This document shows, piece after piece, positions 2,335 to 19,017 of a DNA stretch of 64,000 nt; the first letter of the stretch is position 1; the number at the start of each line of letters is the position of its first letter. The DNA lies in the NCBI GenBank assembly GCA_949289125.1, contig CASEME010000018.1:134359-198358 (forward strand), written 5' to 3'. The translations under genes and the position numbers were made by a program. Below the pieces are notes generated by a model. That model made no database searches. It had not been told where the DNA came from and worked only from the letters and a program-made list of their open reading frames with translations. Source of the DNA: an uncultured Eubacteriales bacterium (GTDB lineage Bacteria; Bacillota; Clostridia; Christensenellales; CAG-314).

Positions 2335-3528
2335 TTATTCTATAGCTTCCTGTTCTAGCTTGCAGTTGTTTGTTAACATGTATTCTGTTAACTTTACAAA
2401 TTCTGCATCTTTAATATTTTTCAATCGTTTAATATCATTTGCTGTTAGTTTTTTCCAGCTTTTTCTGTTCTCAATTAAAGTATCTATATCCATTTTATAA
2501 GGTGCAAATGCAATACCAGTCTTACTCCTTAGATGCTTTAAAATATTAATTCCACCGGCATCTATATCTCCAAAATGTGAAAAGAATAGATTTTGATTAC
2601 TATTATAAAGTTTTTTTAAAAGCATTCTTTTTGTTTGATTATGAAATCCGCCTAAATACACTACAATGCAATCTTCTTTATCAAAAGTGTAAAATGTTGT
2701 TAAATTTTCTACAGTAATAACCTTTTTAGAGCCTATACTAATAAACTTCAAATCATTTATCATTTTGTCTGACAAACAAATTTCATATCCTAATTGCATC
2801 AAATTTATAACAACATTGTTAATTTCAAAACACACATTCCCTTTCATAATGGCATATGTAGTATTTTTTACAAGATTTTTTTCGCACAGAATTTCACAAA
2901 CTGTTTCCTCACTAAAATCGTCTATGCCACAAGTATCGTCAAATTCATATAAGATTTTTGCTATTTTTGTCTTTAATTTTTCAAACTTCTTAGAATCGCC
3001 AAATGTTTTTACGGAAAAGTCTCTAAATTTTGTTTCTTTATCCAATTTTTGTATTTCTTTTAGTCCAAGCAATATTTCATTTAGTTGATTACTTGAATCA
3101 AAATATGCTTTAGGCATAGCATATTTTTTCATTATCCATTCATTGCAAAATGACACAAAGTTGCCTATAATTCCATCTTTACTTTCTGCATTTAATATTT
3201 GACAAACTTTATTCAAATCATCAGCAGGATTGGATCGTTTGAGAAATTTATACACTTCATTTACATTTTCCACATTAAGTTCTAATGATTTAAAATAATC
3301 ATATCTATCTTTTTCAATTTTGATAAAGCCCCATTGACTGTATTGCGAGAGAATAGCGTCATTACGATCTCTATAATTATATGAGTCCCTACACACATAT
3401 GTTTCTAACTCTTTATCGTTGAGACCAAGTGAGATCTTTATATTTTTTTGACTACCTTTTTTAGACAGTACACTATTCTCATATTTGTCTAATAATCTAT
3501 TTAAAATATTCTTGCCAAAAGTTGACAT
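2335..3528 (-). CDS. jetD: Wadjet JetD (MksG-like, Toprim/DUF2220-type nuclease subunit)
   Basis: 397 aa, last gene of a four-gene operon. C-terminal Toprim-like block VITVENLTTFYTF...VYLGGFHN...FSHFGDIDAGGINIL. Sits 8 nt after jetC. Confidence 0.85.
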   Translation of the reverse strand: MSTFGKNILNRLLDKYENSVLSKKGSQKNIKISLGLNDKELETYVCRDSYNYRDRNDAILSQYSQWGFIKIEKDRYDYFKSLELNVENVNEVYKFLKRSNPADDLNKVCQILNAESKDGIIGNFVSFCNEWIMKKYAMPKAYFDSSNQLNEILLGLKEIQKLDKETKFRDFSVKTFGDSKKFEKLKTKIAKILYEFDDTCGIDDFSEETVCEILCEKNLVKNTTYAIMKGNVCFEINNVVINLMQLGYEICLSDKMINDLKFISIGSKKVITVENLTTFYTFDKEDCIVVYLGGFHNQTKRMLLKKLYNSNQNLFFSHFGDIDAGGINILKHLRSKTGIAFAPYKMDIDTLIENRKSWKKLTANDIKRLKNIKDAEFVKLTEYMLTNNCKLEQEAIE

Positions 3529-3536
3529 TATTGCTC

Positions 3537-6500
3537 CTAAGAAATATATTGTATGAATATACGGTTATTAATTTTTGTCAAACCTACTACTGTGTCCATA
3601 TATTCAGTTAGCGTAGCCATTCTTATAGAAGGAACTACTATACATAACTGAATATCCAATTTTTTGTAAAATTCCATCAACGCATTTATCCTACTTTCGT
3701 CCATGTTGTTGAAGGCTTCATCATAAATTACAGTACAAGCAGAAGTATTTTTATCGCCTAAAATTAGTTGATCAAAACATGTAGCTATTATTACATAAAA
3801 TGGTGTCTGCGTTTCGCCACCACTTTTTTCTTTATTTGTTTTGGAAAAATATGAAACATTATCATACTTATTTGTAGTTTTTATATCAAATTTCATATAA
3901 TTTCTATAATCAAGATAACGATTTAACATCTTTTCCGATTCACTACCTGACTTTTCTATTATAATTCTATCGAAAAGTCTTTTTAAAATATCTTTATCTC
4001 TTTCGTCAAGAACTTCATCAAAAAATGTATTGGCTTCTAAGAGCTTACCTGAGGTAATAATTCGATAATAATCTTTCATCTCGTCATCGTCAGAAGAAGA
4101 ATATACAAATTGATAAACCTCATCATCAATTCCAAATGGATTGTCTTTTAAATTTTTGTTTATAGACTTTAATGTATCCTTTGCGTCCTCAATTCTCTCC
4201 GAAAGTTTTGATAGAAAATCTGTCTTAAATCCGCTTTGGCATCTTTCAAACGCAACATCAGCTCTGGATTTATAATCCAACAAGCTTCTGTTTTTCAACT
4301 TATTATATTCATTGACAAAATCTATTACATTTTCAATTAGAGTTGACATACTTGGAGAATACTTGCTAACATATTCTCTCATTCCCCTTTCTATTTCACT
4401 CTTCATTGCATTATTAGAATTTTGTATTTTTTGACTATCTTCCCAAACTTGTCGTAAATCATATTTTTCTTCTGTTACATAATTTGAACAAAATTTTTCA
4501 TAATCTATTTTATCCAGTTTTTGACAAACCTTTGAATATTCTTCACTTTGTGTTTGATAGTCGACTGTCAATTTTTTAATTTCTTCACCTATAGCACCTT
4601 GATCTCTAACTTTAATTTCTTTTTGATGTTCTTCTTCATTTATCCTATTATTAATATTAAGAAGTTCATTTTCTACATTTTTTAAAGTTTCGCTTATTGT
4701 AAAAATATTATCGTCTTTTTCTACTTCGTCTATTTCGGCTTGCACAACTTCACGTTCGCTCATACAAACATCTTTGGCTTTCCATAAATCTTCTATGTCA
4801 ACAATCTCTTTAATTTTTGAACTTTCAATTACTCTAATTAGCTCTTTAAGATTAATCGTTTCTTTTTCTGCTAATTCTTTTTGAGCTTTTAGATCTTCTA
4901 TTTTACCAAGTAAAATGTTTTTTCTTTTTATTATAGAGTTACTGCCGACATACGGATACTCATATATTTCAGGTTTAATATTCCTTACTGTCCTATTTTT
5001 ATATACCATGCAGGTATCAGTAATCGCTGTTTGATAATTTTTTAATTCACCTACACTATCAACACAAACAACATTACCTAATAGCATATGAGCCACAAAT
5101 CGAGCATATTGATTTGTTATATTTAATTTGTTAAACAGTGTATTTTCATTTGTATCATATTCCTTTGCTCTATCACAACGCACTATACCAACGCCATAAA
5201 TATTCAAGTCAAATTTGAATTTTTCATATACTTCAAGCGCATAGTCATAATAATTAGGTTCAATGATCAAATCAAATCTTTGTGTGTTCAAATATCCTTC
5301 GATAGCATTAGCCCATCGCATATCATTTATCTCAAGATATTCACAAAGAGGGCGGACTTCGACGTCTTTTTGATAGTTCTTAAATAGTTCTCTCTTTGAT
5401 AAATCAATTAAGGTAGTTGTCCTTTTATCGTATGTATTCTTTCCCTTTTCTATTGCCTCTAATTCGTGTTGCCGTTCGTGCAAATTACTTTCTATGCTAG
5501 ATATATCTGCTTCTAATTGCAAAAGACGTCTATATTTCTCATCTTTTAAACTTTGTAAATCTTCTTTGTAACTTCTTACATGTTCTTTAAAAAGCCCAAA
5601 GTTTTTATTTTTGATATCTTCAAAAAATCTATATCTTAACCCCAAGTCTTTGATAATTATATTTTCACTTGAAATTATTTTTTCGACATTATCAATTTTT
5701 TTAGAAATTTCGTTAAGTTTAAGTTCTACGTTAGACAAACACTTTTTCTTTTCTTCAAGTACTTTGTATAATTCATTATTTACCAAGTTTATTCTCTGCG
5801 AAACATAACTTGACCTTTTGTCATCTAATTGCTTCAGTGTTTCTCTGTGAATATTTATTCCAGTGACTAACTTTTCATAATCTTTTTCTTTACTTTTAAT
5901 CTTTTTTTCTAAATCTTTTAAGTGCAAAAGAACTTTTATTGCTTCATAAAATTTCAGACGCTTTGTATTTTCATAGTATTTTTCTGCTTTATCAACAAAT
6001 GTCTCTAAAGTTTGAACTTTCTGTTCTTCTTTATCCAACTGCATTTTTATTTCTCTATAACTTCTTATTTCTTCCATCAATGCATCTATTTCTATGTTAT
6101 TATCTTTAAGGAGAAAGTTATTGACAAAAGTTGACACTTCGTTAATGGGTTTGAATGCAATAGCTTTTCTCAACAATTCTGCATATCTTTCTGGATTATC
6201 CAATTTTAATATATCACGGGCAATTGTTTTACGGCGATCCCTTTGAGAGCCATTAAGTTTAGTATCGGAAAATGCAACTTGTTTGGATTTCAAAATGTTT
6301 TTTAATTCTGAAAAATTAACTATCTTACCTTCTTGGATATAATCATTGTCACATATATGATAATTCTGTACAATGTAAAACTTTACCTTGGGCTTACCAT
6401 CATCAACGATTTCTATGGTCGCACCCAGCACCATTGGGAATTTGTCATTTTCATCTTCGTACTGCAAAGCAATATGAGATATAACATCAGCTGTATTTCT

Positions 6501-6752
6501 TAAAAATTCTTTGCCATCTCCTTCATTGCCTAACTTTCCCCTTACATAAGATTTGAGCGTTCTTTTACCATCGGCATTAGCTGCATTATTGAAACAATTA
6601 TCGTCGCCACCCGAAAGCACAAAATATATTGCATCTGTAAGCGTTGACTTTCCGCAACCATTTTCGCCCGTCAACAAAAAATTACCTTGAACCTCTACAC
6701 TAGTATTGATAAAAAAATGCCAATTAATTAATTTAATCTTCGTCAACTTCAT
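3537..6752 (-). CDS. jetC: Wadjet JetC (SMC/MukB-like ATPase)
   Basis: ~1070 aa. Walker A GENGCGKSTLTDAIYF, long coiled-coil middle, signature-like SGGETQTPFYV, Walker B VIYDEAFNNMDESR. Preferred start is ATG 6752 (GAGGAAG RBS); the ORF track start is 6776. Confidence 0.9.
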   Translation of the reverse strand: MKLTKIKLINWHFFINTSVEVQGNFLLTGENGCGKSTLTDAIYFVLSGGDDNCFNNAANADGKRTLKSYVRGKLGNEGDGKEFLRNTADVISHIALQYEDENDKFPMVLGATIEIVDDGKPKVKFYIVQNYHICDNDYIQEGKIVNFSELKNILKSKQVAFSDTKLNGSQRDRRKTIARDILKLDNPERYAELLRKAIAFKPINEVSTFVNNFLLKDNNIEIDALMEEIRSYREIKMQLDKEEQKVQTLETFVDKAEKYYENTKRLKFYEAIKVLLHLKDLEKKIKSKEKDYEKLVTGINIHRETLKQLDDKRSSYVSQRINLVNNELYKVLEEKKKCLSNVELKLNEISKKIDNVEKIISSENIIIKDLGLRYRFFEDIKNKNFGLFKEHVRSYKEDLQSLKDEKYRRLLQLEADISSIESNLHERQHELEAIEKGKNTYDKRTTTLIDLSKRELFKNYQKDVEVRPLCEYLEINDMRWANAIEGYLNTQRFDLIIEPNYYDYALEVYEKFKFDLNIYGVGIVRCDRAKEYDTNENTLFNKLNITNQYARFVAHMLLGNVVCVDSVGELKNYQTAITDTCMVYKNRTVRNIKPEIYEYPYVGSNSIIKRKNILLGKIEDLKAQKELAEKETINLKELIRVIESSKIKEIVDIEDLWKAKDVCMSEREVVQAEIDEVEKDDNIFTISETLKNVENELLNINNRINEEEHQKEIKVRDQGAIGEEIKKLTVDYQTQSEEYSKVCQKLDKIDYEKFCSNYVTEEKYDLRQVWEDSQKIQNSNNAMKSEIERGMREYVSKYSPSMSTLIENVIDFVNEYNKLKNRSLLDYKSRADVAFERCQSGFKTDFLSKLSERIEDAKDTLKSINKNLKDNPFGIDDEVYQFVYSSSDDDEMKDYYRIITSGKLLEANTFFDEVLDERDKDILKRLFDRIIIEKSGSESEKMLNRYLDYRNYMKFDIKTTNKYDNVSYFSKTNKEKSGGETQTPFYVIIATCFDQLILGDKNTSACTVIYDEAFNNMDESRINALMEFYKKLDIQLCIVVPSIRMATLTEYMDTVVGLTKINNRIFIQYIS

Positions 6753-7386
6753 TATATTCTTCCTCTTCTTTTGCAATATAAGTTTTGAGTTTATTATTTA
6801 TTAGATCTATATCATTTATTTTTACAACCATAGCTACTGTAGGAAAAATCTCTACAACATTATTCACCTCATAATTGTTTTTATCGAAATTAATCAACTT
6901 ATATTTTTTTAAATTACTAAGTGCATCTATGATCTGAGTTTTAGGAATTTTATCCTTATTCTTATAAATACCCGTATCATCTAATGCGGACAAAAGTTCA
7001 TCTATGGTTATTGATATGTTGGTATTTGCATCAATACTTTCTTTGCTTTTCAAATAATAAAACTTTCTCAGCAACACCAAAATAACTGTTTCCATTTTCT
7101 TTAATTTTACCCTGTTACGATCAGTTGTACTTTCAAGATAAAATATCTTGCGCATATCGTCATGCACAAGTTGAAATTCTATCATAGCAAAGTATGCTTG
7201 AATAATTTCTTTCATTGCCAATATAGAATAATAATCATTTTTATCTTCACTTAACTGCCCATAAACAAAGTTATATCCTATTAATTTATTACAGAGCTTG
7301 GCGAATAAATCTTTTTTCGTATCATTTAATGTATGATAAATTTCATTGAATTTTGTACATATTGTATCTTTAGAATGTGCACTCAT
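6733..7386 (-). CDS. jetB: Wadjet JetB (MukE/MksE-like, DUF4194-type)
   Basis: 217 aa with an acidic C-terminus. ATGA overlap with jetA stop, overlaps jetC start. Size and position fit the jetABCD order. Confidence 0.75.
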   Translation of the reverse strand: MSAHSKDTICTKFNEIYHTLNDTKKDLFAKLCNKLIGYNFVYGQLSEDKNDYYSILAMKEIIQAYFAMIEFQLVHDDMRKIFYLESTTDRNRVKLKKMETVILVLLRKFYYLKSKESIDANTNISITIDELLSALDDTGIYKNKDKIPKTQIIDALSNLKKYKLINFDKNNYEVNNVVEIFPTVAMVVKINDIDLINNKLKTYIAKEEEEYNEVDED

Positions 7387-8777
7387 TTCTTTTTCTCCAC
7401 AATGTAATCTGTTATTAATTTGTCCTTACAATAAAATACTTTTTGATTATATGTAATCGAATACGAAACTATTTTATTTTGACTGTATAATCCTGCTAAA
7501 AATACCTTGATTAAATCTTCGCTATCACAAATATTCATTTGCGATGCCGTCATGCTATTCCTTTCTCCTAATTGTTTACTGATAAATTTGTCAATACTTC
7601 TACAATTAAATTTTGTTTCATTAATAAATTTTTCTCTTGATTTTTTTAATTCAACTTCGGCAACAGGATCAATTACATAATCCAGTTGTGATGTTGCATT
7701 TCTTCTTCTAATTCTTGGCGTATATAAAGAATTTTCATCCAATTTACCAAAATCAAATATAGAAAACAAACCCATATCATCAACATAATCGTCACTTTGA
7801 GCAATATTTTTAAGTAGCTCAATAATCTTACCTTCAATATCAACTTCCTCATTTAACAAGAAAGCAATCTTTGACTTTGCAGTCGTTGCATATTTTGTAT
7901 TTCTTTTGTTGAGATTTTCCAAGTTGTCTTCGATATCATTAAACTGATCTAAAACATATCCCAGAGCCTCACGAAAAAAACTCTCTGCTTCTTTTTGATT
8001 TTCTTCATTAACGATTCCATTTTTTTTCTTATTGATATATTCTCCCACCATATTGGAAAAATTATCTCTTTCAAATAGTGATTTTATCTTATCTATAATT
8101 GAATGTTTATATTTAGCAGGATTATCCTTGATTCTTAAATTATCAAAAGTTTTTAAAATTACCTTATCTTGATATTCCACTAAAAATTGATCCAATATTT
8201 CCCTAGGCGTCAAGCTTTCATTTGCCAGTAGCTTTCGAATATATTTTTTTATACTTACATTTAGTCCCCTTAGCCTATCTATCAATTCTTTCGTATTTTT
8301 ATACATCTGCTCTACGATATCAGTGGAGTGAGCAGTTTGAAAATTTTTAAGGGCAGAGTAAATGCTATAAACATAACCTGTATATTCTACAGGTCTTGTA
8401 TCATTTTTTACAATTTCTTCCATTGCATTGAGAATTATAATAGCATTACTATCCATTTGATATGTTGTTTTTAATAGTTTATTATCATTTTCGTCTACTA
8501 CCCAACCATATTTCAAAAAATATCGCAATTTTTTTGATGCAATTGTTTTAATATCAGCACTTTCTATTTCACCACTTTCATCATCATAAATATTTGATGG
8601 GCAATTTTCAAGATAATCCACTAGCCATGAAAGTACCTCATCACGAGGAAACTGTTTCATTTCATTATTCATTTTAAGATTTATTAGGCATAGCAAATCA
8701 TAATTTAATCTTTTATTGATCCCCGTTAAAGGAAGAAAGAATTTCTCATTCACGAATTCAAAAAAATTTGTTGACAT
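7383..8777 (-). CDS. jetA: Wadjet JetA (MukF/MksF-like kleisin, DUF3375-type)
   Basis: ~464 aa, first gene of the operon, size and position as in jetABCD. ORF track start 8783 is a GTG; ATG at 8777 follows a GAGG. Confidence 0.75.
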   Translation of the reverse strand: MSTNFFEFVNEKFFLPLTGINKRLNYDLLCLINLKMNNEMKQFPRDEVLSWLVDYLENCPSNIYDDESGEIESADIKTIASKKLRYFLKYGWVVDENDNKLLKTTYQMDSNAIIILNAMEEIVKNDTRPVEYTGYVYSIYSALKNFQTAHSTDIVEQMYKNTKELIDRLRGLNVSIKKYIRKLLANESLTPREILDQFLVEYQDKVILKTFDNLRIKDNPAKYKHSIIDKIKSLFERDNFSNMVGEYINKKKNGIVNEENQKEAESFFREALGYVLDQFNDIEDNLENLNKRNTKYATTAKSKIAFLLNEEVDIEGKIIELLKNIAQSDDYVDDMGLFSIFDFGKLDENSLYTPRIRRRNATSQLDYVIDPVAEVELKKSREKFINETKFNCRSIDKFISKQLGERNSMTASQMNICDSEDLIKVFLAGLYSQNKIVSYSITYNQKVFYCKDKLITDYIVEKKK

Positions 8778-8950
8778 ATGCACCTCAAAAAAAATAATAC
8801 AATATTAGCCTTTTAATCTTATTACAAAACAATTTATACTTTATAATCCAATGCATTATAAATAGAACTGACAAATATAGATTTAACTTTTGTTTATATT
8901 CAAACTCTATCCTATCAATTCTCTTGGTGATATAAGTGCTTCTATATGTA

Positions 8951-10460: not shown

Positions 10461-10977
10461 TTACAACACAATTTCGTATTTATAATCCTTCATGATTATA
10501 TCTGTTCCTCTTTTCTTATATGTGCTTTCACCTACAATTTTCCCGCCACATTTTTGAGCCACACGATTGGAAGCAGTATTTCCCTGACTTACATAAATAG
10601 TCACTTTCTCAGCCCCTTGACTACGAGCATAATCTATCATTGCTTGAGCAATTTCAGTCGCATAGCCTTGACACCAAAAATTCTTATGTACGCAATAAGC
10701 AATTATCGTACACCTTTTTGTCATCACTTATCACAAAACTACATGTCCCTACCCGTTCTAGCGAATTCTTAAAAACAGGGATCAAATAGCAACATTCCTC
10801 ATCCTCGCCTAGGCCTTCTAACATCTTCAAATAGTTCTCATCTATATCTTCTTTTGCTTCATCAGGCAAATATTGTCCCATCTCTGGATTGTTCCAGATA
10901 CTATATGCCCACAAAGCATCTTCTTTAGTGTATCCTCTTAATATAAGCCTTGAAGTTTCAATATCATTTATTTTCAT
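10461..10977 (-). pseudogene. GNAT (RimJ/RimL-like) N-acetyltransferase, split by a 1-nt frameshift
   Basis: ORFs 10684-10977 (MKINDIETSRLILRGYTKEDA...) and 10461-10727 (...IAYCVHKNFWCQGYATEIAQAMIDYA...) are the N- and C-halves of one GNAT. Removing one A in GATAATTGC (~10716) restores ...KKVYDIAYCVHKNFW. Confidence 0.8.
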
Positions 10978-11283: not shown

Positions 11284-11518
11284 TAAAAAGTTGCCCCACA
11301 GAGTGAAAAGTAAAGTAAAATGAATAACGAAGTAACTTTGTTACTATGCGATACTTTCTACTTTGTGGGGTCTATATAAATAACATTGAATAACAATTTT
11401 GCGGTCTATAACTCGTGAAAAAATTTGCTGCAGGGATTTTTCTAAAAGGGCAGGTATGCGTTTTAAGAGTGAAAAATAGGGCTATTTTCCGAGTGGGTAC
11501 TTTGCCCATTTATTCTGA
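11284..11518. repeat. copy 1 of a ~235-nt structured non-coding element (direct repeat of 14005-14243)
   Basis: Aligns along its whole length with 14005-14243. Identical blocks include gttactatgcgatactttctactttgtgggg, attgaataacaattttgcggtc and atgcgttttaag. Hairpin CCCCACAGAG...CTTTGTGGGG with inner stem AGTAAC/GTTACT. Confidence 0.8.
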
Positions 11519-11519
11519 C

Positions 11520-11552
11520 AACAAAAAGACAGTAGGCATATTGACCTACTGT
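11520..11552 (-). terminator. intrinsic terminator of the TAC operon
   Basis: Stem GACAGTAGG / CCTACTGTC followed on the minus strand by TTTTT. Lies 17 nt after the chaperone stop. Confidence 0.6.
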
Positions 11553-11568
11553 CTAATATTAATTTCAA

Positions 11569-11988
11569 CTAATTGATATTATTTTGATTATCCACCAATG
11601 CATTTACATCAATTGGGGGCATTATAATCGGCACCATTGCTGGTTGTGTTGTAATAAGTGAAACTTGACTTCTAATGTAAGGGAACATTATTGCAACTGT
11701 GTTTTTCTTCAAAATCTGCTCTGCTGTTGCATCATCAATGTTTTCTGCGTCTAACTTAAAATATCCTACCGTCTGTAAATAAACCCTTAAAGTATCTTCA
11801 TCATTTGTAATAGTTGTATCTATTGTCACTCTTACTTGATTTTTATTATCTTTTTTTTCAGCATATTTTACTGATATACTAGTTTTAAATTCTGTATCTT
11901 TTGTTTTCTTTTTTAATTCATATGACATCTGCGAAAACACTAAATCCTGCATTATTAATTTACTATTTACATTGTTATTTTCTTTCAT
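11569..11988 (-). CDS. SecB-like chaperone (TAC-system chaperone)
   Basis: C-terminal NTVAIMFPYIRSQVSLITTQPAMVPIIMPPIDVNAL matches the SecB hallmark (..LFPY.R..IS.L......PP..L.P.NF.AL). Preferred start ATG 11988 with AAGGTG RBS. Confidence 0.75.
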   Translation of the reverse strand: MKENNNVNSKLIMQDLVFSQMSYELKKKTKDTEFKTSISVKYAEKKDNKNQVRVTIDTTITNDEDTLRVYLQTVGYFKLDAENIDDATAEQILKKNTVAIMFPYIRSQVSLITTQPAMVPIIMPPIDVNALVDNQNNIN

Positions 11989-12002
11989 ATAATTCACCTT
12001 AA

Positions 12003-12392
12003 TTATGAATAACAAACTTCTGTTTTTTTAGGATCAAACGAGTTAGGCACATTACCTAAATAAGTATATCTAAACTTAAAAGCATCGGAAATTTTTTCTA
12101 CGAATTCATCATTGTTAATGAATTCATTAACCACTTCAACATGGTAAACTTTGTCCAAAATGCTTTTATCTTCTCTCATGAGAGTAAGTAATACTGCACT
12201 GCTTCCTTTTATTTTGTTTTTTCCTTGTTCCCATTTTTCAATAGTCTTTTTTGTAACACCCAAAATGTTTGCTAAAGCAATTTGTGTTAAATTATAATAC
12301 TCCCTAAATTCTTTTACATAGCTGGCATCAACATTGACATTTAACCTTTTGACTACTAATTTTTTGGCACTCAATAATCTCTTTATATTCAT
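12003..12392 (-). CDS. HigA/XRE-type antitoxin with C-terminal extension
   Basis: 129 aa. HTH NLTQIALANILGVTKKTIEKWEQGKNKIKGSSAVLLTLM followed by a ~45-aa tail. Start overlaps the toxin stop (TAATG). Confidence 0.8.
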   Translation of the reverse strand: MNIKRLLSAKKLVVKRLNVNVDASYVKEFREYYNLTQIALANILGVTKKTIEKWEQGKNKIKGSSAVLLTLMREDKSILDKVYHVEVVNEFINNDEFVEKISDAFKFRYTYLGNVPNSFDPKKTEVCYS

Positions 12393-12832
12393 TAAAAAGC
12401 CTCCCGTTTACTTATATTATACTCATCTATCAGCTTTTTTAGTTTGTTCATTGCTATTTTAGATATGTTTTCATCTTCACCATGAGCATGTCTGTATATA
12501 TGTAGAATAATTGCTATATTATCTTCACGATCTACCAACGTTATAACTCTGTAACCATTAGATTTACCCTTTTTTCTATAATTATCTTCTGTTCTTATTT
12601 TGCAACATGCAATTTTATAGTTTTCATTACACTGATACAATATAGAGTAAGTTTTTGATTTTCTATTAGCTTCTATCTCCGCTTGAACATTTTGTGCTAT
12701 CCGAATGAGTTCTTTTTCATCTATGTCTTTGCAATCTTTTTTTAAATTGAAAGGAGAATTAAGTAATTGTTCACTTATGTGATCTGGGTCATAAAATACT
12801 TGAAAATTTATTTTATTTGATATATTAATCAC
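12392..12832 (-). CDS. RelE/HigB-superfamily toxin
   Basis: 146 aa. KKGKSNGYRVITLVDREDNIAIILHIYRHAHGEDENIS resembles the K.GKSGGYRVI...I.LL.IY.K core of RelE/HigB toxins. First gene of a three-gene operon. Confidence 0.7.
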   Translation of the reverse strand: MINISNKINFQVFYDPDHISEQLLNSPFNLKKDCKDIDEKELIRIAQNVQAEIEANRKSKTYSILYQCNENYKIACCKIRTEDNYRKKGKSNGYRVITLVDREDNIAIILHIYRHAHGEDENISKIAMNKLKKLIDEYNISKREAF

Positions 12833-12848
12833 TCTCCTTTAATTATTA

Positions 12849-12863
12849 CCCTATTTAATAGGG
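12849..12863. promoter_or_regulatory. perfect palindrome upstream of the toxin gene (candidate antitoxin operator)
   Basis: CCCTATT-T-AATAGGG, 17 nt upstream of the toxin start codon. Confidence 0.4.
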
Positions 12864-13064
12864 CAATAACACTATAACATATCTTAAAAGAAAAGTAAAG
12901 TATTTTTCTCAATTTAGAAATCAATCAATTACAAATACATTTCATATAAAACAATATACTAATTTTAGATAAATTCAATATTGTTGTGCCATGATAGTAA
13001 ATTATAAATTTAATTTCAGCAAATATTTAAGACTTTGTAATCTAGTTCAGTAGCTCGTAATATC

Positions 13065-13535
13065 TTAAATATTCCCTTCGTATCTAGGACGAAAATAATA
13101 ATGCATTATTGCCTCAACTAGCTCAGTTGCCGCTTTGCCTTTGTCCTCTTTAATCAAAATATTTATTCTTTGTGTATTGGTCAAAATCCATTGTTTCACC
13201 GAAATATGATCTAATTGCATACTTTGATCTTTTAACAATGATTTTGCAAAAGTGCTTGGTGCACTGCAATTATAATGATGACTTACATATCTAGCATTTG
13301 ATTTAGGATTAACTTTACCAATTTTCATCACTGTATCGCCAAAGATAAAAAAATACACTGCACCATAACCTTTAGGCAAAGTCCTAGGTTGCACATGTGG
13401 ACAAGACATATCTTCCACATAATAATCACTTTCTGTTATTGGATAACCTAAACTAATAGATATTTCTTCAACAAACTTCATTATTTTAATGATTTTACTT
13501 TTCATCTTTTTACCTTTTAGATTTTTTTTCGTCAA
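13065..13535 (-). CDS. hypothetical protein, possibly GIY-YIG-like nuclease fold
   Basis: 156 aa. GAVYFFIFGDTVMKIGKV...SNARYVSHHYN...STFAKSLL...ATELVEAIMHYYF loosely fits GIY...YIG...R...H...E spacing. Start could be the internal M at 13505. The functional call is weak. Confidence 0.4.
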   Translation of the reverse strand: MTKKNLKGKKMKSKIIKIMKFVEEISISLGYPITESDYYVEDMSCPHVQPRTLPKGYGAVYFFIFGDTVMKIGKVNPKSNARYVSHHYNCSAPSTFAKSLLKDQSMQLDHISVKQWILTNTQRINILIKEDKGKAATELVEAIMHYYFRPRYEGNI

Positions 13536-13592
13536 CTAATTTAAAAATTCTAAACTAGTTATACATACACACTATTTTACAGTACAACAGGA

Positions 13593-13937
13593 TTACCTTT
13601 TCTTCAATTTGTGAGTATTTTCTTTATGCAAATGCCCATGAAAATGTACAGAATTTTGCCTTGACTTATTCTCGCTACTAAAATTGATACTAGTAGTAGT
13701 ATTTTTAACATTCGTTTTAGGTCCATAACGCAGTTCTAAGTACGCTGCATTTTTATCTGCTCGAGCGTTAGCAATTTTTAACTTTAGATTATCACGCTTG
13801 CGATCTTCAAATAATGATGTATTCTCCATTTTGTGTTCCAATTTATTAATTTTTTTACAAGCTTGACGATACTTATCTGCAGTTTTATTTCTGAATATCA
13901 TATTATGAATCATCCTTGTGACTTTATTATAACACAT
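13593..13937 (-). CDS. hypothetical small basic protein
   Basis: 114-aa ORF (possible later start MIHNMIF), lysine/arginine-rich with a His-rich tail HFHGHLHKENTHKLKKR. Lies 57 nt upstream of the 156-aa gene. Confidence 0.4.
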   Translation of the reverse strand: MCYNKVTRMIHNMIFRNKTADKYRQACKKINKLEHKMENTSLFEDRKRDNLKLKIANARADKNAAYLELRYGPKTNVKNTTTSINFSSENKSRQNSVHFHGHLHKENTHKLKKR

Positions 13938-14004
13938 AACTATGACAACTGTTTGACATAATTTTCAATAAAATAATAATTATTTTTATATCAAATATAG
14001 ATAT

Positions 14005-14243
14005 AAAAAGTTTCCCCACAAAGGGGAAAGGTAAGGCAAATTGAGTAACGGAGTGAGGTTGTTACTATGCGATACTTTCTACTTTGTGGGGGTTATAAAA
14101 ATAATATTGAATAACAATTTTGCGGTCCGTAACTCGTGGGGAAATTTGGGGTATGGGATTTTTCTAAAAAGGCAAGTATGCGTTTTAAGGGCGAGAAATA
14201 GGGCTATTTGCCGAGTAGGCATTTTCGCCCATTTTCTTCTGAC
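14005..14243. repeat. copy 2 of the ~235-nt structured non-coding element
   Basis: See copy 1. Hairpin CCCCACAAAG...CTTTGTGGGG (14014-14090) with inner AGTAAC-11nt-GTTACT. Homology to copy 1 ends exactly at ...ctgac (14243). Confidence 0.8.
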
Positions 14244-14281
14244 TCCGTCACTCGCAGGTTCAAATCCTGCTACCCTAGCCA
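14244..14281 (+). other. tRNA 3'-end fragment (T-arm + acceptor 3' strand + discriminator + CCA), att-like
   Basis: tccgtcactc GCAGG TTCAAAT CCTGC TACCCTA G CCA. I could not fold a canonical D-arm or anticodon arm upstream, so this is not an intact tRNA gene. Confidence 0.6.
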
Positions 14282-14318
14282 CAATTCAAGCGACATTTTG
14301 TATGTCGCACACACAAAA

Positions 14319-14347
14319 AGCGTGCAAATTCTGCACGCTTTTTTTTC
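14319..14347 (+). terminator. intrinsic terminator following the tRNA-like end
   Basis: AGCGTGCA-aattc-TGCACGCT followed by T8. Confidence 0.7.
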
Positions 14348-14425: not shown

Positions 14426-14465
14426 TCCGTCACTGCGTTCCTTACAGATCCTGCTGCCATTGCCA
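14426..14465 (+). repeat. decayed second copy of the tRNA 3'-end fragment
   Basis: tccgtcactgcgttccttacagatcctgctgccattgcca versus tccgtcactcgcaggttcaaatcctgctaccctagcca. The first 9 nt, atcctgct and the terminal gcca are shared. Confidence 0.45.
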
Positions 14466-14831: not shown

Positions 14832-15444
14832 ATGAACTATCTTGACGAAATACGTGTAATATGCACCAAAGATGGTAGATGTTACATAAAGAATGACTTT
14901 TCTGCAGTTGATCCAGATGATCAAAATTCATTAAAGCCAATTAAAGAGGCATTAACAGTGCACAACCATATTTTGTTAGATCCAGACAAAAAGGTTGTTT
15001 TTGTAGAAGGAATAACCGATTACAATTATATGACGACCTTTACACAAATCCTAAACAAAAAAAGACATAGTCTTCCTGCCAATTAAAGGCGTAGGTGACA
15101 TAACTGACAGCTCCAATAAAGCTAAACAACAAGAAATTATCAAATAGCTGTTGAAAATAAGAAAAACCAAAATATTGCTAATGTTAGACGGTGATAAGGC
15201 TGGCAAAGATATGGAAAAAGCGTGCGAAGATACCGCATTACCAGCATTCAATCTATCTAAGGTTGATAGCAATTTCAAAACAATAGAAAATTTATTCGAT
15301 AAAGATGATATATCGAAGTTTGGCCTTAAAGAAAAACATGCAGGAACATCATCTTTATTAAAAAGCTTTGAAAAAGAAGATAGCTTTAGCAAAACAACTA
15401 TAGACAACTTCAAAAAACTATTCGATTATATTGATAACAACTAA
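14832..15444 (+). pseudogene. Toprim-domain (OLD / DUF4435-type) nuclease remnant
   Basis: ORFs 14832-15086 (..KKVVFVEGITDYNYM..) and 15151-15444 (..ILLMLDGDKAGKD..) carry the Toprim E and DxD motifs. They are joined only by a +1 shift at the A7 run 15057-15063, plus an in-frame TAG at 15145-15147. No N-terminal ATPase part is present. Confidence 0.6.
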
Positions 15445-15691
15445 CTCTTTAATGCAGCTCAAAGGTTTGTTTTTTGAGCTGCATTTACTATCACATTGAA
15501 AATTTAATTGCACTCTTCACTTCAATGATAATACAACACTATTGTTAGCCACACCACAGTCAACTTGGTGGATAGGCTTTTGCAAACGAAAAGGATTATT
15601 TTTTATTTTTTGCTATACTTATTGATAATCATTACTATTTGTAGTACAATTTGCTATATTTGCAAAAACAATTTTGCAATTTGGAGAACAA

Positions 15692-17062
15692 ATGAAACAT
15701 TTATCAATGGAAGTAAGAGTACCTATTGAAAAAGACAACCCAAGTATTGTGCGTGACGAACAAAAGTGCATAAAATGCGGACAATGCAAACGGGTGTGTA
15801 CCGAACAAATAGGCGTACACAACAGATACACTTTGGAGCAAACAGACAATACTGCGCTGTGCATATCTTGCGGTCAATGCAGCAACGTATGCCCCACTAA
15901 CAGCATAACCGAAAAGTACGAATACGAGCAGTTTGCCAAAGCTATAAGTGACAAAAACAAAATTGTAGTTGTCAACACATCTCCCTCTGTGCGCGTTGCC
16001 TTAGGCGAAGAATTTGGGCTACCTTTAGGTCAATTTGTACAAGGCAAGATGGTTGCACTATTAAAAAAATTGGGTGTCGACTACGTATTGGACACCAACT
16101 TTGCCGCAGACCTAACCATAGTAGAAGAAGCAAGCGAGCTTATTGAACGTATTGTCAACAAAACTGCCCCACTGTCTCAATTTACAAGTTGCTGTCCGGC
16201 ATGGGTGGAATATGCGGAAACTTTTTATCCTGAGATACTGCCCAACTTATCCACAGCAAAAAGTCCTATCGGTATGCAAGGTCCTACAGTCAAAATATAC
16301 TTTGCAAAAAAAATGGGCATAGACCACAAAAAGATATTCAATGTTGCATTGACGCCTTGCACAGCCAAAAAACACGAAATACGCAGAGAAGAAATGTGTG
16401 CTTCTGCAAAATACCACAACAATCCATCGCTTAGAGATATGGATTGTGTAATAACCACGCGCGAATTGGCTATACTTGCCAAACAAAACAACATAGACTT
16501 CAACCAGTTGGAAGATATGCCTTATGATGACCTTATGGGACAAGCATCGGGAGCAGGAGTAATATTCGGCAATACGGGCGGCGTTATGGAGGCTGCTCTG
16601 CGCACTGCCTACGAGTACATTACCAAACAAAAAGCACCGCTAAAAATGCTTAGCCTTACTCCAATAAGAGGTTGCGACGGTATAAGAGAAGCATCTGTAA
16701 ATATTGGAGATATGACACTTAACGTTGCAGTTGTGTACGGTACTGCCAACGCTGCCAAACTACTGCAACTAATCAAAAGCGGACAAAAACAATATCACTT
16801 TGTGGAAGTTATGACTTGCCCCAACGGTTGCATAGGCGGAGGCGGTCAACCCAAAAACATATTGGCTGACAATCAAAACATACGACAACACCGTATGTCG
16901 GCTTTGTACAACAAAGATGCAAGTATGACTGTACGCACCAGCCATGAAAACCCCCAAATTACGCAAGTGTACAAAGAATTTTACGGCAAACCATTGAGCA
17001 AGCTTGCCGAAGAAATGTTGCATACAACATACACTGATAAAAGCGGCAAAATTAAAAAGTAA
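15692..17062 (+). CDS. hydA: [FeFe] hydrogenase, monomeric (2x[4Fe-4S] + H-cluster domain)
   Basis: CIKCGQCKRVC and CISCGQCSNVCP ferredoxin motifs. H-cluster motifs TSCCPAW, TPCTAKKHE, EVMTCPNGCIGGGGQP. Start ATG 15692 after GGAGAA. Confidence 0.9.
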   Translation: MKHLSMEVRVPIEKDNPSIVRDEQKCIKCGQCKRVCTEQIGVHNRYTLEQTDNTALCISCGQCSNVCPTNSITEKYEYEQFAKAISDKNKIVVVNTSPSVRVALGEEFGLPLGQFVQGKMVALLKKLGVDYVLDTNFAADLTIVEEASELIERIVNKTAPLSQFTSCCPAWVEYAETFYPEILPNLSTAKSPIGMQGPTVKIYFAKKMGIDHKKIFNVALTPCTAKKHEIRREEMCASAKYHNNPSLRDMDCVITTRELAILAKQNNIDFNQLEDMPYDDLMGQASGAGVIFGNTGGVMEAALRTAYEYITKQKAPLKMLSLTPIRGCDGIREASVNIGDMTLNVAVVYGTANAAKLLQLIKSGQKQYHFVEVMTCPNGCIGGGGQPKNILADNQNIRQHRMSALYNKDASMTVRTSHENPQITQVYKEFYGKPLSKLAEEMLHTTYTDKSGKIKK

Positions 17063-17195: not shown

Positions 17196-18716
17196 CTATC
17201 TTTCGTAATTAAAGATTGTCACAATCTCTTTGAACAGTTTTTCGTTTTCCACTACAATCAAAGCCAGTTTGTCTTTTGCTCGTGTGATATTTTGGTAAAG
17301 CATTTTTTCGTAGAGATAATCGGTTTTGTTGTGCACCCGTGCGCACAATTTGCCCTTTTCGTCATGATAAAAGGCATTGTTCAAAACAACCAAAACTTTG
17401 TCAAACTCCTGCCCTATGACATGGTGAGTATCGTAGTCCATACCATACTCGCCCCAATTGCCTTGCTCGACAGAATTATCCGTATAGTTGATAAACACAT
17501 AGCCACGACTGCGAAAATATTCAATAATACCCAGTGCCTCGATATTATTGCCGGCAAAACACACATTGATATTTTTGTATCTGATGTTGCGAGGTGGCTT
17601 TTTGTTGAGGTCAAATACATATCGCATAAAAAACGCAAGTTCTTTGTTGGTACGGATATGCGTTGTCAATTCGTACTGCGCTGTCAAAGGCAATGCGTTG
17701 ACCTTGTTGAAAATATCGTTGTGTTGTTCTCTCAAAGACAGCGTCTGATTGGGATCCAACGAAATAATACAAGTAATATGTTTGTCTGCAACTATATCGC
17801 ATATTTTTTGCAACTGATTAGCGTATATGCGGTGACACTCGTCAAGTAAAACAAACTTATATTGAGCAATTGTATCCAGACTGTCTTTGACGCTCTCAAT
17901 AGGTACAAGTGAAAAGTTGTCAACCTTATTGTTAAGTTGCTGATAGCCTTGGGGCAACTTGGCACAATGGACAATAAGCGTTGGCGCAAGGCGAGCAAGT
18001 TGCAACGCTATATCGTACAACAAAAGCGTCTTGCCTGTGCCTGCTTCACCCTTGATACAAAAGTATCCGCCCTTGTCCATATCTATCATTGAAAGCAAAT
18101 GGCTTTTTATCTTTTCCTGATGGTCGGTCAAAAAGTATCGTCCTTGCAAAAATGCCTCAGGCATACTGAGCGGAGATATAAGAAATTGCGACGGGCAGAA
18201 AAACCGCTGTATATCCTGCGCAAAAGGCTGGCAGAACTTACCAACAACAGTTGCCAACTCCTCAATACTACTGCTACGCAACACATCGTCCTCGTCCATA
18301 GTAAAACATTTGAGACTATCTGTTACTACAGTAAAAGAATATATCTTTCTGTTGAGCGGCGCAAGGTAATGTCTGTTTTGTCTGAGCTGTTTTTCTATGC
18401 GCTCCAATTCCACCGCCTTACTTTTTAGCTCAATATTGAGCACCTTGCCGTCCACAATTTTCAACAAGTCAAATTCCTTGCCAATCTGAGGGATAATGTA
18501 GTTGTAAAAAAATCCCTCCCACTTAAATATTCCGCACTTGTGCTTGACAAGCGTATTGACAAGCGCCTGCAAAGACTTTATCTCATGCCTTTGACACTTT
18601 ACTACTATGTCACTATTTAAAGCGTCTTTTTCCACGCAATTGTGCATAAGTACAGACTTAAAGGCTTTGACATCGTTTATTCGTGATAGCAAATACAAAT
18701 TGATCGGCTTAATCAT
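17196..18716 (-). CDS. PD-(D/E)xK (NERD-like) nuclease domain fused to SF1/UvrD-like P-loop ATPase (DUF2075-like)
   Basis: N-terminal GKEFDLLKI...VLNIELK (D...ExK). Walker A GEAGTGKTLLL, Walker B FVLLDECHRI, C-terminal TRAKDKLALIV. Preferred start ATG 18716 (GGAG RBS). Confidence 0.55.
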   Translation of the reverse strand: MIKPINLYLLSRINDVKAFKSVLMHNCVEKDALNSDIVVKCQRHEIKSLQALVNTLVKHKCGIFKWEGFFYNYIIPQIGKEFDLLKIVDGKVLNIELKSKAVELERIEKQLRQNRHYLAPLNRKIYSFTVVTDSLKCFTMDEDDVLRSSSIEELATVVGKFCQPFAQDIQRFFCPSQFLISPLSMPEAFLQGRYFLTDHQEKIKSHLLSMIDMDKGGYFCIKGEAGTGKTLLLYDIALQLARLAPTLIVHCAKLPQGYQQLNNKVDNFSLVPIESVKDSLDTIAQYKFVLLDECHRIYANQLQKICDIVADKHITCIISLDPNQTLSLREQHNDIFNKVNALPLTAQYELTTHIRTNKELAFFMRYVFDLNKKPPRNIRYKNINVCFAGNNIEALGIIEYFRSRGYVFINYTDNSVEQGNWGEYGMDYDTHHVIGQEFDKVLVVLNNAFYHDEKGKLCARVHNKTDYLYEKMLYQNITRAKDKLALIVVENEKLFKEIVTIFNYER

Positions 18717-19017
18717 GATAGTACTCCGACAACTGTTGCCATTGAGCTTTGTCAATTGCTCTCACAAAACGTTGCTTGCAATGGACTAATCAATGACAAT
18801 ATTTATATTGATATTGTAGCACAAAAGGCAACGGCAATCAATATGTTGCCTTTATCTATATTATACTTATAAGCTTTGCAACAAATTGGCAAAAATAGTC
18901 AATAATATTACCCACAAAGCTACAACTTTTTTTAAGAAAAAATTAGTACAATAATATACAATTTGCACAAGGGTATGTTATAATAGGTAAATAGTAAACA
19001 AAAGTGAAGTATTTTTT

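What the first reader, a model, noticed from the sequence alone, without database searches (positions are those of the whole stretch)
11284..14243. Direct repeats of the 235-nt element bracket a 2.5-kb five-gene cassette (TAC module + GIY-YIG-like + small basic protein)
**Seen in sequence.**
- The two copies are in the same orientation, ~2.7 kb apart.
- Everything between them is one minus-strand block with its own terminator (11520-11552).
- Homology of copy 1 stops exactly where copy 2 joins the tRNA fragment.

**Inference.**
- One possibility is that two related islands integrated in tandem at the same tRNA-type site, and the internal att was lost.
- The other is that the element acts as a recombination substrate for cassette gain or loss.
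- Homologous recombination between the copies would precisely delete the TAC cassette.
Basis: partly seen in the sequence, partly recalled or inferred. Interest (0 to 1): 0.55.

Follow-up and report, generated by a model that had tools for sequence, protein, structure and literature searches.

The report
Island-end repeats flanking a TAC cassette
Two 84%-identical copies of a ~240-base non-coding sequence do bracket a five-gene toxin-antitoxin-chaperone cassette, and they most likely are the conserved end-pieces of mobile islands that inserted one after another into a glutamine tRNA gene, which is an ordinary way for bacterial defence islands to grow.

Summary
Two direct copies lie at 11284-11519 and 14004-14243 (84% identity, E 3e-68), the only copies in the window. 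They bracket five intact minus-strand genes with their own terminator.

The genes are a RelE/HigB2-type toxin, an HTH antitoxin, a SecB-like chaperone (a TAC system), a small GIY-YIG-like protein and a basic 114-aa protein.

Copy 2 abuts positions 32-76 of a tRNA-Gln(CUG). Copy 1 shares the 7-nt anticodon loop (TTCTGAC) and diverges exactly after it. A second, decayed tRNA-Gln 3' fragment lies 145 nt further right. Everything left of the fragment, for at least 24 kb, is a 28% GC defence island in a ~41% GC genome.

My best reading (confidence 0.45) is that the element is the conserved arm next to the crossover site of tRNA-Gln-targeting integrative elements. Copy 1 would then be a hybrid junction made by a crossover in the anticodon loop, and the cassette an integrase-less, accreted (CIME-like) module.

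What is missing:
- No integrase or intact tRNA was reachable.
- No related element exists in any searched collection.
- All assemblies are one strain with the same arrangement.

A plus-strand structured RNA remains possible. Cassette loss by homologous recombination is unsupported. The case is ordinary in kind and modest in interest.

The parts
11284..11519 (+). Copy 1 of the non-coding element (236 nt). It ends with TTCTGAC (11513-11519) and is followed directly by unrelated sequence.
   Evidence: stops in all six frames
11293..11371 (+). Long imperfect hairpin / inverted repeat inside copy 1. Its 3' half is the 33-nt block that is identical in both copies (11338-11370).
11527..11554 (-). Intrinsic terminator of the minus-strand cassette (11-bp stem followed by TTTTTGTTG).
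11569..11988 (-). SecB-like TAC chaperone (139 aa).
   Evidence: Pfam SecB 7.9e-12; PADLOC PD-T4-9_C 2.6e-15; TIGR00809 4.9e-12, below its cut-off
12003..12392 (-). HTH (HigA/MqsA-type) antitoxin, 129 aa, with a ~45-aa aromatic-rich C-terminal extension that is a candidate chaperone-addiction (ChAD) segment.
   Evidence: HTH_3 7.8e-7 and MqsA_antitoxin 5.8e-6; TIGR03830 1.5e-10. The extension was read from the sequence; the ChAD role is inferred.
12392..12832 (-). RelE/HigB2-superfamily toxin (146 aa). Its stop codon overlaps the antitoxin start.
   Evidence: profile vs PDB HigB-2 8.8e-8; 40/40 aligned family members hit PF06296; AF2 pLDDT 93, Foldseek top hits RelE/HigB2/HigB1
13065..13505 (-). 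146-aa GIY-YIG-like protein.
   Evidence: invariant Y51, K61-I-G-K64, R72, N115, E131; Pfam GIY_YIG_2 only 0.12 in 2 of 18 members; AF2 pLDDT 94.6, best PDB hit R.Eco29kI with E 0.059
13593..13937 (-). 114-aa lysine/arginine-rich protein of unknown family; first gene of the cassette.
   Evidence: no hit in Pfam, PADLOC, NCBIfam or PHROGs
13939..14007 (-). Promoter-like sites for the cassette, in the 66-nt spacer left of copy 2. A near-consensus plus-strand site (13953-13980) points into copy 2.
   Evidence: consensus matches only
14004..14243 (+). Copy 2 of the element (240 nt). It ends with TTCTGAC (14237-14243). Hairpin at 14013-14092.
14237..14281 (+). Displaced 3' part of tRNA-Gln(CUG), positions 32-76: anticodon loop, stem 3' strand, variable loop, T arm, acceptor 3' strand, G73 and CCA.
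   Evidence: the only blastn matches are tRNA-Gln genes; compared with the Brevibacillus tRNA-Gln; ARAGORN finds no intact tRNA
14315..14346 (+). Strong bidirectional hairpin terminator after the tRNA fragment (GCGTGCA-AATTC-TGCACGC with flanking A and T runs).
   Evidence: sequence; 12-bp hairpin in the fold
14426..14465 (+). Second, decayed copy of tRNA-Gln positions 39-76 (29/38 identical to 14244-14281), same orientation.
   Evidence: score 26 against a maximum of 20 in 6372 other window segments on both strands; shuffle p 0.006

Best explanation
The ~240-nt element is the conserved arm of DNA that lies next to the crossover site at the far end of integrative islands that target tRNA-Gln(CUG).

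Copy 2 plus the tRNA-Gln 3' fragment is the right-hand attachment site (attR type: arm, 7-nt overlap, displaced tRNA 3' part) of a composite low-GC defence island at least 24 kb long.

Copy 1 is an internal hybrid junction. A site-specific crossover of the tyrosine-integrase type, inside the 7-nt anticodon loop, joined the right arm of the large island to a 2.7-kb module. The large island carries Wadjet, SIR2-HerA, RM methylases and GmrSD. The module has its own arm (copy 2) but no integrase.

The module is therefore an accreted, cis-mobilizable-type (CIME-like) cassette. Its cargo is a HigB2/RelE toxin, an HTH antitoxin and a SecB chaperone, plus two small genes. By analogy with E. coli HigBAC, this TAC system would act as an antiphage abortive-infection switch. 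It would also act as an addiction module that disfavours loss of the cassette.

Shown here:
- the repeat and the exact break-point;
- the identity of the tRNA fragment and the existence of a second, decayed fragment;
- the foreign base composition;
- the gene families.

Inferred:
- that an integrase made the junction;
- that the element is bound by it;
- the order of events;
- the activity of the TAC system.
For: - Homology between the copies runs through TTCTGAC and ends at the first base of the anticodon-stem 3' strand. After that point 2 of 13 bases match.
- The fragment after copy 2 is tRNA-Gln positions 32-76. Anticodon-centred attP sites are the largest class in Islander, 2083 of 3919 islands, and the displaced fragment marks the island end (PMC4383910).
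- A second, decayed tRNA-Gln 3' fragment lies 145 nt downstream in the same orientation. This indicates repeated use of the site.
- GC is 27-31% from at least 10 kb left of the window up to ~14 kb, against ~41% from 16 kb onward. The content is defence genes. The right part of the window is housekeeping with no integrase.
- The element is non-coding and matches no Rfam family.
- Its conservation is block-wise (33, 22, 15, 14 and 14 nt identical), as expected for protein-binding sites.
- Tandem accretion and integrase-less cis-mobilizable modules that keep att sites are documented (PMC8978831; PMC3146451). The latter paper also reports extra conserved sequence next to the direct repeat.
Against: - No integrase and no intact tRNA-Gln were seen in the window or in the 10 kb to its left. 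The left end of the island was not reached.
- The internal junction lacks the tRNA 3' segment that canonical tandem arrays keep, and the cassette has no integrase. An element with such an attP would break a tRNA if it integrated alone.
- No relative of the element was found anywhere, so its position at island ends cannot be shown in a second genome. Searched: GTDB representative genomes, IMG/VR, JGI metagenomes, phage and plasmid records, and a six-frame peptide search of 5.8 billion proteins.
- No significant repeated motif that could be an arm-type site was found.
- The plus strand shows a conserved-structure signal (alifold z -3.8 against -2.0 for the minus strand). This fits an RNA or a folded single strand as well.
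Confidence: 0.45

Rival explanations
1. The element is a gene for a structured non-coding RNA on the plus strand, present as two paralogues carried by the island. The link to the tRNA fragment is secondary or incidental. This can coexist with the att-arm reading.
For: - RNAalifold consensus energy is -44.6 kcal/mol on the plus strand against -27.9 (MAFFT alignment of the reverse strand; -24.1 on the mirrored alignment) on the minus strand.
- Column-shuffle z is -3.84 (1 of 300 shuffles as good) against -1.98 for the minus strand.
- All 13 variable predicted pairs stay paired on the plus strand and none on the minus strand. Substitutions hit 14 of 132 paired columns against 30 of 108 unpaired columns.
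- A near-consensus promoter (TTGACA-16-AATAAT, 13953-13980) points into copy 2, and a strong terminator follows at 14315-14346.
Against: - There is no Rfam match, even at E up to 10.
- There are only two sequences, and the structure was predicted from the same alignment, so the pair counts are circular. 30 of 132 paired cells are G-U in a G+T-rich strand.
- In the main hairpin all changes are on one arm while the other arm (33 nt) is invariant. That looks like a sequence-specific site rather than compensatory evolution.
- Copy 1 has no promoter-like site upstream.
- An RNA gene does not explain why homology ends exactly at the anticodon-loop boundary.
Confidence: 0.18
2. The repeat is a plain old segmental duplication or an illegitimate-recombination scar of non-coding spacer DNA with no present function. 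The cassette simply sits between the copies, and RecA-dependent recombination between them could occasionally delete it.
For: - The repeats are direct, so a crossover between them would remove 11520-14243 precisely (geometry).
- No function for the element was demonstrated here.
Against: - Identity is 82-84% and the longest perfect run is 33 nt. From established knowledge, not tested here, recombination frequency falls steeply with divergence and needs longer identical segments.
- Block-wise conservation, including a 33-nt invariant block next to 28% diverged flanks, indicates constraint.
- The break-point coincides to the base with the anticodon-loop boundary, which a random duplication end would rarely do.
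- There is no deletion allele in four independent samples, though all are one strain.
- The TA module would penalise loss. TA systems stabilise composite islands (PMC8978831).
Confidence: 0.2
3. The element is a folded single-strand recombination site of the integron attC type, or another hairpin-recognising system, and the five genes are a captured cassette.
For: - There is an ~80-nt imperfect hairpin whose pairing is kept on one strand only.
- The cassette is bracketed by two copies in direct orientation and includes a TA module, as is common in chromosomal integron arrays (own knowledge).
Against: - There is no GTTRRRY/RYYYAAC core at the ends (sequence).
- The element is 236-240 nt against roughly 60-140 nt for attC.
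- There are five genes with their own promoter-like sites and terminator, rather than a promoterless ORF.
- There are only two copies, and no IntI-type integrase in the window or in the 10 kb to its left.
Confidence: 0.04

Closest known systems
Tandem accretion of integrative elements and cis-mobilizable elements (ICESt1/CIME of Streptococcus thermophilus; tandem ssrA islands of Dehalococcoides)
   Same: Modules in direct order at one tRNA-type site are separated by att-related sequences. Some modules lack integration genes but keep att sites. Extra conserved sequence lies next to the direct repeat (PMC8978831; PMC3146451).
   Different: The internal junction here keeps only the arm and the 7-nt overlap, not a copy of the tRNA 3' end. 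The conserved arm is long (~235 nt) and 16% diverged. Neither the integrase nor any mobility was seen.
Islander-type genomic islands in tRNA genes with an anticodon-centred attP
   Same: A displaced 3' tDNA fragment starts at the anticodon loop, lies at the end of a compositionally foreign block, and has the orientation expected for an intact tRNA upstream (PMC4383910).
   Different: The intact tRNA-Gln and the integrase were not found in the accessible sequence. Islander's tandem criterion (own fragment and own integrase per island) is not met by the cassette.
HigBAC / TAC toxin-antitoxin-chaperone antiphage systems (E. coli HigBAC, CmdTAC = PD-T4-9; M. tuberculosis HigBA1-SecB)
   Same: The gene order is toxin, antitoxin, SecB-like chaperone, with overlapping or adjacent genes. 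The toxin has a RelE/HigB fold. The antitoxin has an HTH and a C-terminal extension. The chaperone matches PD-T4-9_C (bioRxiv 10.1101/2024.02.24.581848; PMC11618068).
   Different: The toxin is a distant member of a small family: 76 representatives at E up to 0.001, nearest 49% identical. The ChAD segment, the trigger and any antiphage activity are untested.
Integron gene cassettes with attC sites
   Same: Direct repeats with an imperfect hairpin bracket a cassette that includes a TA module.
   Different: No core-site consensus, no IntI, five genes with their own signals, only two copies, and an element twice the size of attC.

Membership tests
tRNA-integrated genomic island (Islander definition) | Displaced fragment of a tRNA gene at one island end | tested here: met
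   14237-14281 is tRNA-Gln(CUG) positions 32-76.
tRNA-integrated genomic island (Islander definition) | Intact cognate tRNA gene at the other end, same orientation | tested here: inconclusive
   No tRNA in the window or in the 10 kb to its left. The island runs off the accessible sequence, and the longer public contig could not be fetched.
tRNA-integrated genomic island (Islander definition) | Integrase gene inside the island | tested here: inconclusive
   None among the annotated genes from about -10 kb to 50 kb. The expected position, next to the intact tRNA, was not reached.
tRNA-integrated genomic island (Islander definition) | Foreign composition and accessory cargo | tested here: met
   27-31% GC against ~41%. 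Cargo: Wadjet, SIR2-HerA, methylases, GmrSD, TAC.
Tandem island array (Islander criterion) | [quoted passage not shown] | tested here: not met
   Copy 1 keeps only the 7-nt loop. The 2.7-kb module encodes no recombinase.
Cis-mobilizable element / accreted module | Flanked by two att-related sites in direct orientation and lacking integration and transfer genes | tested here: inconclusive
   It is flanked by arm+overlap (copy 1) and arm+overlap+tRNA fragment (copy 2), with no integrase. That these sequences are functional att sites is not shown.
Cis-mobilizable element / accreted module | Excision or co-excision with the neighbouring element | not testable with these tools
   Needs read-level junction search or PCR. 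All assemblies show the integrated form.
TAC (toxin-antitoxin-chaperone) system | SecB-like chaperone encoded with a type II TA pair | tested here: met
   Pfam SecB 7.9e-12 (above its cut-off); PADLOC PD-T4-9_C 2.6e-15.
TAC (toxin-antitoxin-chaperone) system | Type II toxin of a known superfamily | tested here: met
   HigB-2 8.8e-8 by profile; PF06296 in 40/40 aligned family members; RelE/HigB fold. The single protein scores below Pfam's cut-off (17 against 27 bits).
TAC (toxin-antitoxin-chaperone) system | Antitoxin with a C-terminal chaperone-addiction (ChAD) segment | tested here: inconclusive
   The HTH ends near residue 82. A 47-aa aromatic-rich tail follows (FKFRYTY), read from the sequence.
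Integron cassette / attC | attC core sites (RYYYAAC ... GTTRRRY) and a neighbouring IntI integrase | tested here: not met
   The ends read GTTGCCC / GTTTCCC and TTCTGAC. No integrase was found.
Any described RNA family (Rfam 15) | Covariance-model match | tested here: not met
   No hit over either copy at the gathering threshold or at E up to 10.
GIY-YIG nuclease superfamily (146-aa protein) | GIY...YIG motifs, catalytic Arg, Glu and Asn; family-model match | tested here: inconclusive
   Motif-like invariant residues. Pfam GIY_YIG_2 scores only 0.12 in 2 of 18 members. The best fold hit is R.Eco29kI at E 0.059, TM 0.42.

The most novel reading that the evidence does not exclude
Defence cassettes without an integrase may be captured and exchanged at the end of a tRNA-integrated island. 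They would use only a ~235-nt arm and the 7-nt anticodon-loop overlap, serviced in trans by the resident island's integrase. That would be an integron-like cassette system built on a tRNA att site. In this reading the arm might act as a folded single strand or as a plus-strand RNA.
Probability: 0.1. Interest if true: 0.6.

Novelty: new member of a known kind. Interest (0 to 1): 0.3.

Why it matters
If the reading is right, this locus shows a defence island growing by site-specific accretion of a very small, integrase-less module. The module's only cargo is an antiphage/addiction TAC system plus two small genes. The junction is preserved to the base at the anticodon loop. That gives a concrete, PCR-testable example of how defence genes are shuffled between islands in an uncultured Clostridia-like bacterium. 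It does not change current understanding, because composite tRNA islands and TA-stabilised islands are well known.

Tried and rejected
**Searches for other copies or alleles**
- No third copy of the element in the window or in any fetched locus.
- Exact-block scans found nothing real. They covered GTDB representative genomes, IMG/VR and JGI metagenomes with the 21-mers from the two longest invariant blocks, plus a degenerate 28-mer. One 19-mer hit was a chance match.
- blastn of the element and of the whole cassette against phage and plasmid records matched only the tRNA-Gln part.
- A concatenate of all open six-frame segments of both copies, searched as a protein, aimed to catch spurious ORF calls over related elements. 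It gave no hit.
- Presence/absence polymorphism: every contig carrying cassette proteins is the same strain (99.98-100% identity) with the same arrangement. The two scaffold ends that differ look like assembly chimeras; one is a SusD-like fragment.
- Walking left to find the integrase and the intact tRNA failed. The 84-kb ENA contig is never returned for genes left of ~9 kb, and other proteins may not be looked up.
- The closest genome by hydrogenase is only 65% identical (Clostridiales bacterium VE202-15) and has no tRNA nearby.

**Alternative identities rejected**
- Coding potential: stops in all frames.
- Diversity-generating retroelement repeat pair: substitutions are of all kinds, not adenine-specific, and there is no reverse transcriptase.
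- tmRNA, or a tRNA with an intron: ARAGORN finds nothing at default thresholds, with or without introns. Only poor pseudo-structures appear at relaxed thresholds. There is no group I intron hit in Rfam.
- Guide-like complementarity of the element to tRNA-Gln: none of 8 nt or more.
- Arm-type repeat motifs: only 6-mers at chance level.
- tRNA 5'-half relics inside the element (14030-14054, 14199-14223): suggestive by eye but not significant (p about 0.06).
- Homologues of the GIY-YIG-like gene lie in unrelated contexts without the element.


Full report
**1. The observation**

The window holds exactly two copies of a non-coding element, at 11284-11519 (236 nt) and 14004-14243 (240 nt).
- They are in direct orientation with starts 2720 nt apart.
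- blastn aligns 240 columns at 84.2% identity (E 3e-68), and nhmmer gives E 1.8e-44. Nothing else in the 64 kb comes close.
- A MAFFT alignment has 196 of 240 identical columns.
- Identity is block-wise: invariant runs of 33, 22, 15, 14 and 14 nt are separated by stretches that are 25-30% diverged.
- All six reading frames are broken by stops, and the frames differ between the copies.

The repeat is therefore real, non-coding and far beyond chance.

**2. What lies between the copies**

Five intact ORFs, all on the minus strand, are followed by a hairpin plus T-run terminator at 11554-11527.

| Gene | Coordinates | Evidence |
|---|---|---|
| SecB-like chaperone | 11569-11988 | Pfam SecB 7.9e-12; PADLOC PD-T4-9_C 2.6e-15, the chaperone of the system the Vassallo screen named PD-T4-9 and later work renamed CmdTAC (own knowledge; not stated in the papers read here) |
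| HTH antitoxin, MqsA/HigA type | 12003-12392 | |
| RelE/HigB2-type toxin | 12392-12832 | see below |
| GIY-YIG-like protein, 146 aa | 13065-13505 | see below |
| Basic protein, 114 aa | 13593-13937 | no match in any library |

- The antitoxin has a ~47-aa aromatic-rich C-terminal tail, which is a candidate chaperone-addiction segment.
- The toxin alone scores only 0.007 against Pfam RelE.
- An exhaustive search found a small toxin family of 76 representatives.
  - The family profile hits Vibrio HigB-2 structures at 8.8e-8.
  - All 40 aligned members hit PF06296.
  - A confident model (pLDDT 93) retrieves only RelE/HigB folds.
Its nearest described relative is E. coli HigBAC, in which the chaperone senses a phage protein and releases the toxin (bioRxiv 10.1101/2024.02.24.581848).
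- The 146-aa protein has conserved Y, K-I-G-K, R, N and E positions. It has a confident model (pLDDT 94.6), whose best PDB match is the GIY-YIG enzyme R.Eco29kI, but only at E 0.059. 'GIY-YIG-like' is thus plausible but not established.
- Relatives of the 146-aa protein sit in unrelated contexts, so the cassette as a unit is not conserved elsewhere.

**3. The surroundings**

- From at least 10 kb left of the window to about 14 kb, GC is 27-31%. From 16 kb onward it is about 41%.
- The low-GC block is a defence island.
  - It holds GmrSD, two methyltransferases, SIR2 plus a HerA-like ATPase, a complete Wadjet JetABCD, an HTH gene, a metallophosphoesterase and a frameshifted GNAT gene.
  - These are followed by copy 1, the cassette and copy 2.
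- The rest of the window encodes housekeeping functions (Obg, PFK, glycogen synthesis, RNase P RNA) and no recombinase.

**4. The tRNA fragment and the break-point**

- The 45 nt after copy 2's unique part (14237-14281) are positions 32-76 of a tRNA-Gln(CUG): anticodon loop TTCTGAC, stem 3' strand TCCGT, variable loop, T arm, acceptor 3' strand, G73 and CCA.
- The only database matches of the region are tRNA-Gln genes. The fragment aligns base for base with a Brevibacillus tRNA-Gln.
- ARAGORN finds no intact tRNA in the window.
- A strong bidirectional terminator follows at 14315-14346.
More precisely, both copies contain the 7-nt loop (11513-11519 and 14237-14243). They diverge at the very next base, and only 2 of the next 13 bases match.
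- The anticodon loop is the classic 7-nt overlap for integrases that target tRNA genes. In Islander, 2083 of 3919 mapped islands have an anticodon-centred attP, and the displaced fragment marks the island end (PMC4383910).

**5. A further scar**

A second, decayed copy of tRNA-Gln positions 39-76 lies at 14426-14465, 145 nt downstream of the first fragment and in the same orientation.
- It is 29/38 identical to the first fragment.
- Its alignment score is 26, against a maximum of 20 in 6372 other segments of the window on both strands. Shuffle p is 0.006.
- This is what repeated integration at one tRNA leaves behind.

**6. Most likely mechanism**

I read the element as the conserved arm next to the crossover site of tRNA-Gln-targeting integrative elements.
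- Copy 2 + TTCTGAC + tRNA 3' part is an attR-type end.
- Copy 1 + TTCTGAC + unrelated DNA is what a crossover within the loop produces when a second DNA with a related arm recombines with the resident island's end. In symbols, P1-O-B' x P2-O-P2' gives P1-O-P2' ... P2-O-B'.
- The 2.7-kb module has an arm but no integrase. It would therefore be a cis-mobilizable, accreted module of the kind described for ICESt1/CIME and for the tandem ssrA islands of Dehalococcoides. In the latter, extra conserved sequence beside the repeat was also noted (PMC8978831; PMC3146451).
- A variant that I cannot exclude is a normal tandem integration followed by an integrase-mediated deletion. The deletion would run from the loop into the second island and remove its tRNA copy and its integrase.
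- The TAC system would act as an abortive-infection defence. As an addiction module it would also penalise loss of the cassette, as shown for other composite islands.
- None of the recombination steps is demonstrated. They are inferred from the anatomy.

**7. Weaknesses**

- The integrase and the intact tRNA were not found. The island continues beyond the sequence I could fetch. The longer public contig was never returned, and proteins outside the window may not be looked up.
- The element has no relative in any collection I could search, by exact blocks, by blastn or by a six-frame peptide trick. Its position at island ends therefore rests on this one locus.
- A canonical tandem array would keep a tRNA 3' copy at the internal junction. 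This one does not.

**8. The RNA alternative**

- The plus strand folds better than the minus strand as a consensus: -44.6 against -27.9 kcal/mol, and column-shuffle z -3.8 against -2.0.
- All 13 variable predicted pairs remain paired on the plus strand only.
- A near-consensus promoter points into copy 2.
- However, there are only two sequences, and the structure was derived from them. A quarter of the paired cells are G-U in a G+T-rich strand.
- In the main 80-nt hairpin every change is on one arm, while the other arm is the invariant 33-mer.
- Copy 1 has no promoter, and Rfam has no match.
- I keep this as a rival at about 0.18. It is compatible with the att-arm reading.

**9. The recombination-substrate idea**

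- A crossover between the copies would indeed delete 11520-14243.
- The copies are 16-18% diverged, with at most 33 identical bases in a row.
- Three metagenome assemblies and one Logan unitig that cover the cassette (four samples) all show the same arrangement, with no deletion or alternative cassette.
- All are one strain, so this says little either way.
- Logan unitigs end inside the shared 33-mer, as expected for k = 31. That is not evidence of rearrangement.

**10. Verdict**

- The 'tandem integration' interpretation is partly supported and refined to a hybrid junction at the anticodon loop, plus a second fossil fragment.
- The 'recombination substrate' interpretation is unsupported.
- In kind this is a composite tRNA-integrated defence island with an accreted TAC module, that is, a new member of a known kind.
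- Interest is modest (0.3).
- The most novel reading still open is integron-like capture of integrase-less defence cassettes through a long arm at a tRNA att site, possibly involving a folded strand or an RNA. I put it at about 0.1.

Noticed in passing
window 14426-14465: A second, decayed copy of the tRNA-Gln 3' part (positions 39-76) lies 145 nt downstream of the first fragment in the same orientation. It is a probable fossil of an earlier integration at the same tRNA.
   Followed up: yes
window 2335-8783 (minus strand): A complete type I Wadjet system: JetA 7383-8783, JetB 6733-7386, JetC 3537-6776, JetD 2335-3528.
   Followed up: partly
L020/L031 (about 10 kb left of the window start) and window 977-1531: The low-GC island continues with a 184-aa gene, SIR2_2, a DUF87/HerA-like ATPase, two DNA methyltransferases, two unknown genes, GmrSD and a HEPN (pEK499_p136) gene. 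No tRNA or integrase occurs up to the scaffold end.
   Followed up: partly
window 17196-18755 (minus strand): A 519-aa protein matches PADLOC AbiO (2.5e-137) and Nhi (1e-133). It sits in ~40% GC DNA on the far side of the [FeFe] hydrogenase gene (15674-17062).
   Followed up: no
window 10461-10977 (minus strand): A GNAT acetyltransferase gene is split by a frameshift into 97-aa and 88-aa ORFs that cover profile positions 1-76 and 83-137. The same split is present in all public assemblies, so it is probably a pseudogene next to copy 1.
   Followed up: partly
window 14832-15444 (plus strand): Two short ORFs (84 and 97 aa) lie in an AT-rich stretch between the tRNA fragments and the hydrogenase gene. 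They look like pieces of a Toprim/OLD-type gene (motif VFVEGITD; weak DnaG-Toprim hit 0.022). They may be a remnant of another accessory gene.
   Followed up: partly
window 13953-13980 (plus strand): A near-consensus promoter-like site (TTGACA-16-AATAAT) in the 66-nt spacer points into copy 2. It is divergent from the cassette's own promoter-like sites.
   Followed up: no
window 14030-14054 and 14199-14223 (copy 2); 11478-11502 (copy 1): Stretches inside the element resemble parts of a tRNA-Gln 5' half. One is GGTAAGGCAA followed 8 nt later by ACGGA. The other is TAGGGCTATTTGCCGAGTAGGCA, about 38 nt before the loop. Neither is significant by shuffling (p about 0.06), but both would fit an arm that once contained a captured tRNA copy.
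   Followed up: partly
L005 16292-16672; L006 1-303: Two public scaffolds that share this region diverge abruptly into unrelated, higher-GC sequence; one is a SusD-like fragment. They are probably assembly chimeras, not alternative alleles.
   Followed up: partly
L036, L039-L041; L024-L030; L042-L050: Relatives of the 146-aa GIY-YIG-like protein occur in three contexts: next to a GNAT gene and isoleucyl-tRNA synthetase in other Clostridia-like genomes; ahead of an uncharacterised four-gene operon; and on nine IMG/VR viral contigs. This is a small, unnamed family.
   Followed up: partly
window 44042-44370 (minus strand): Bacterial RNase P RNA, class A (244 bits).
   Followed up: no
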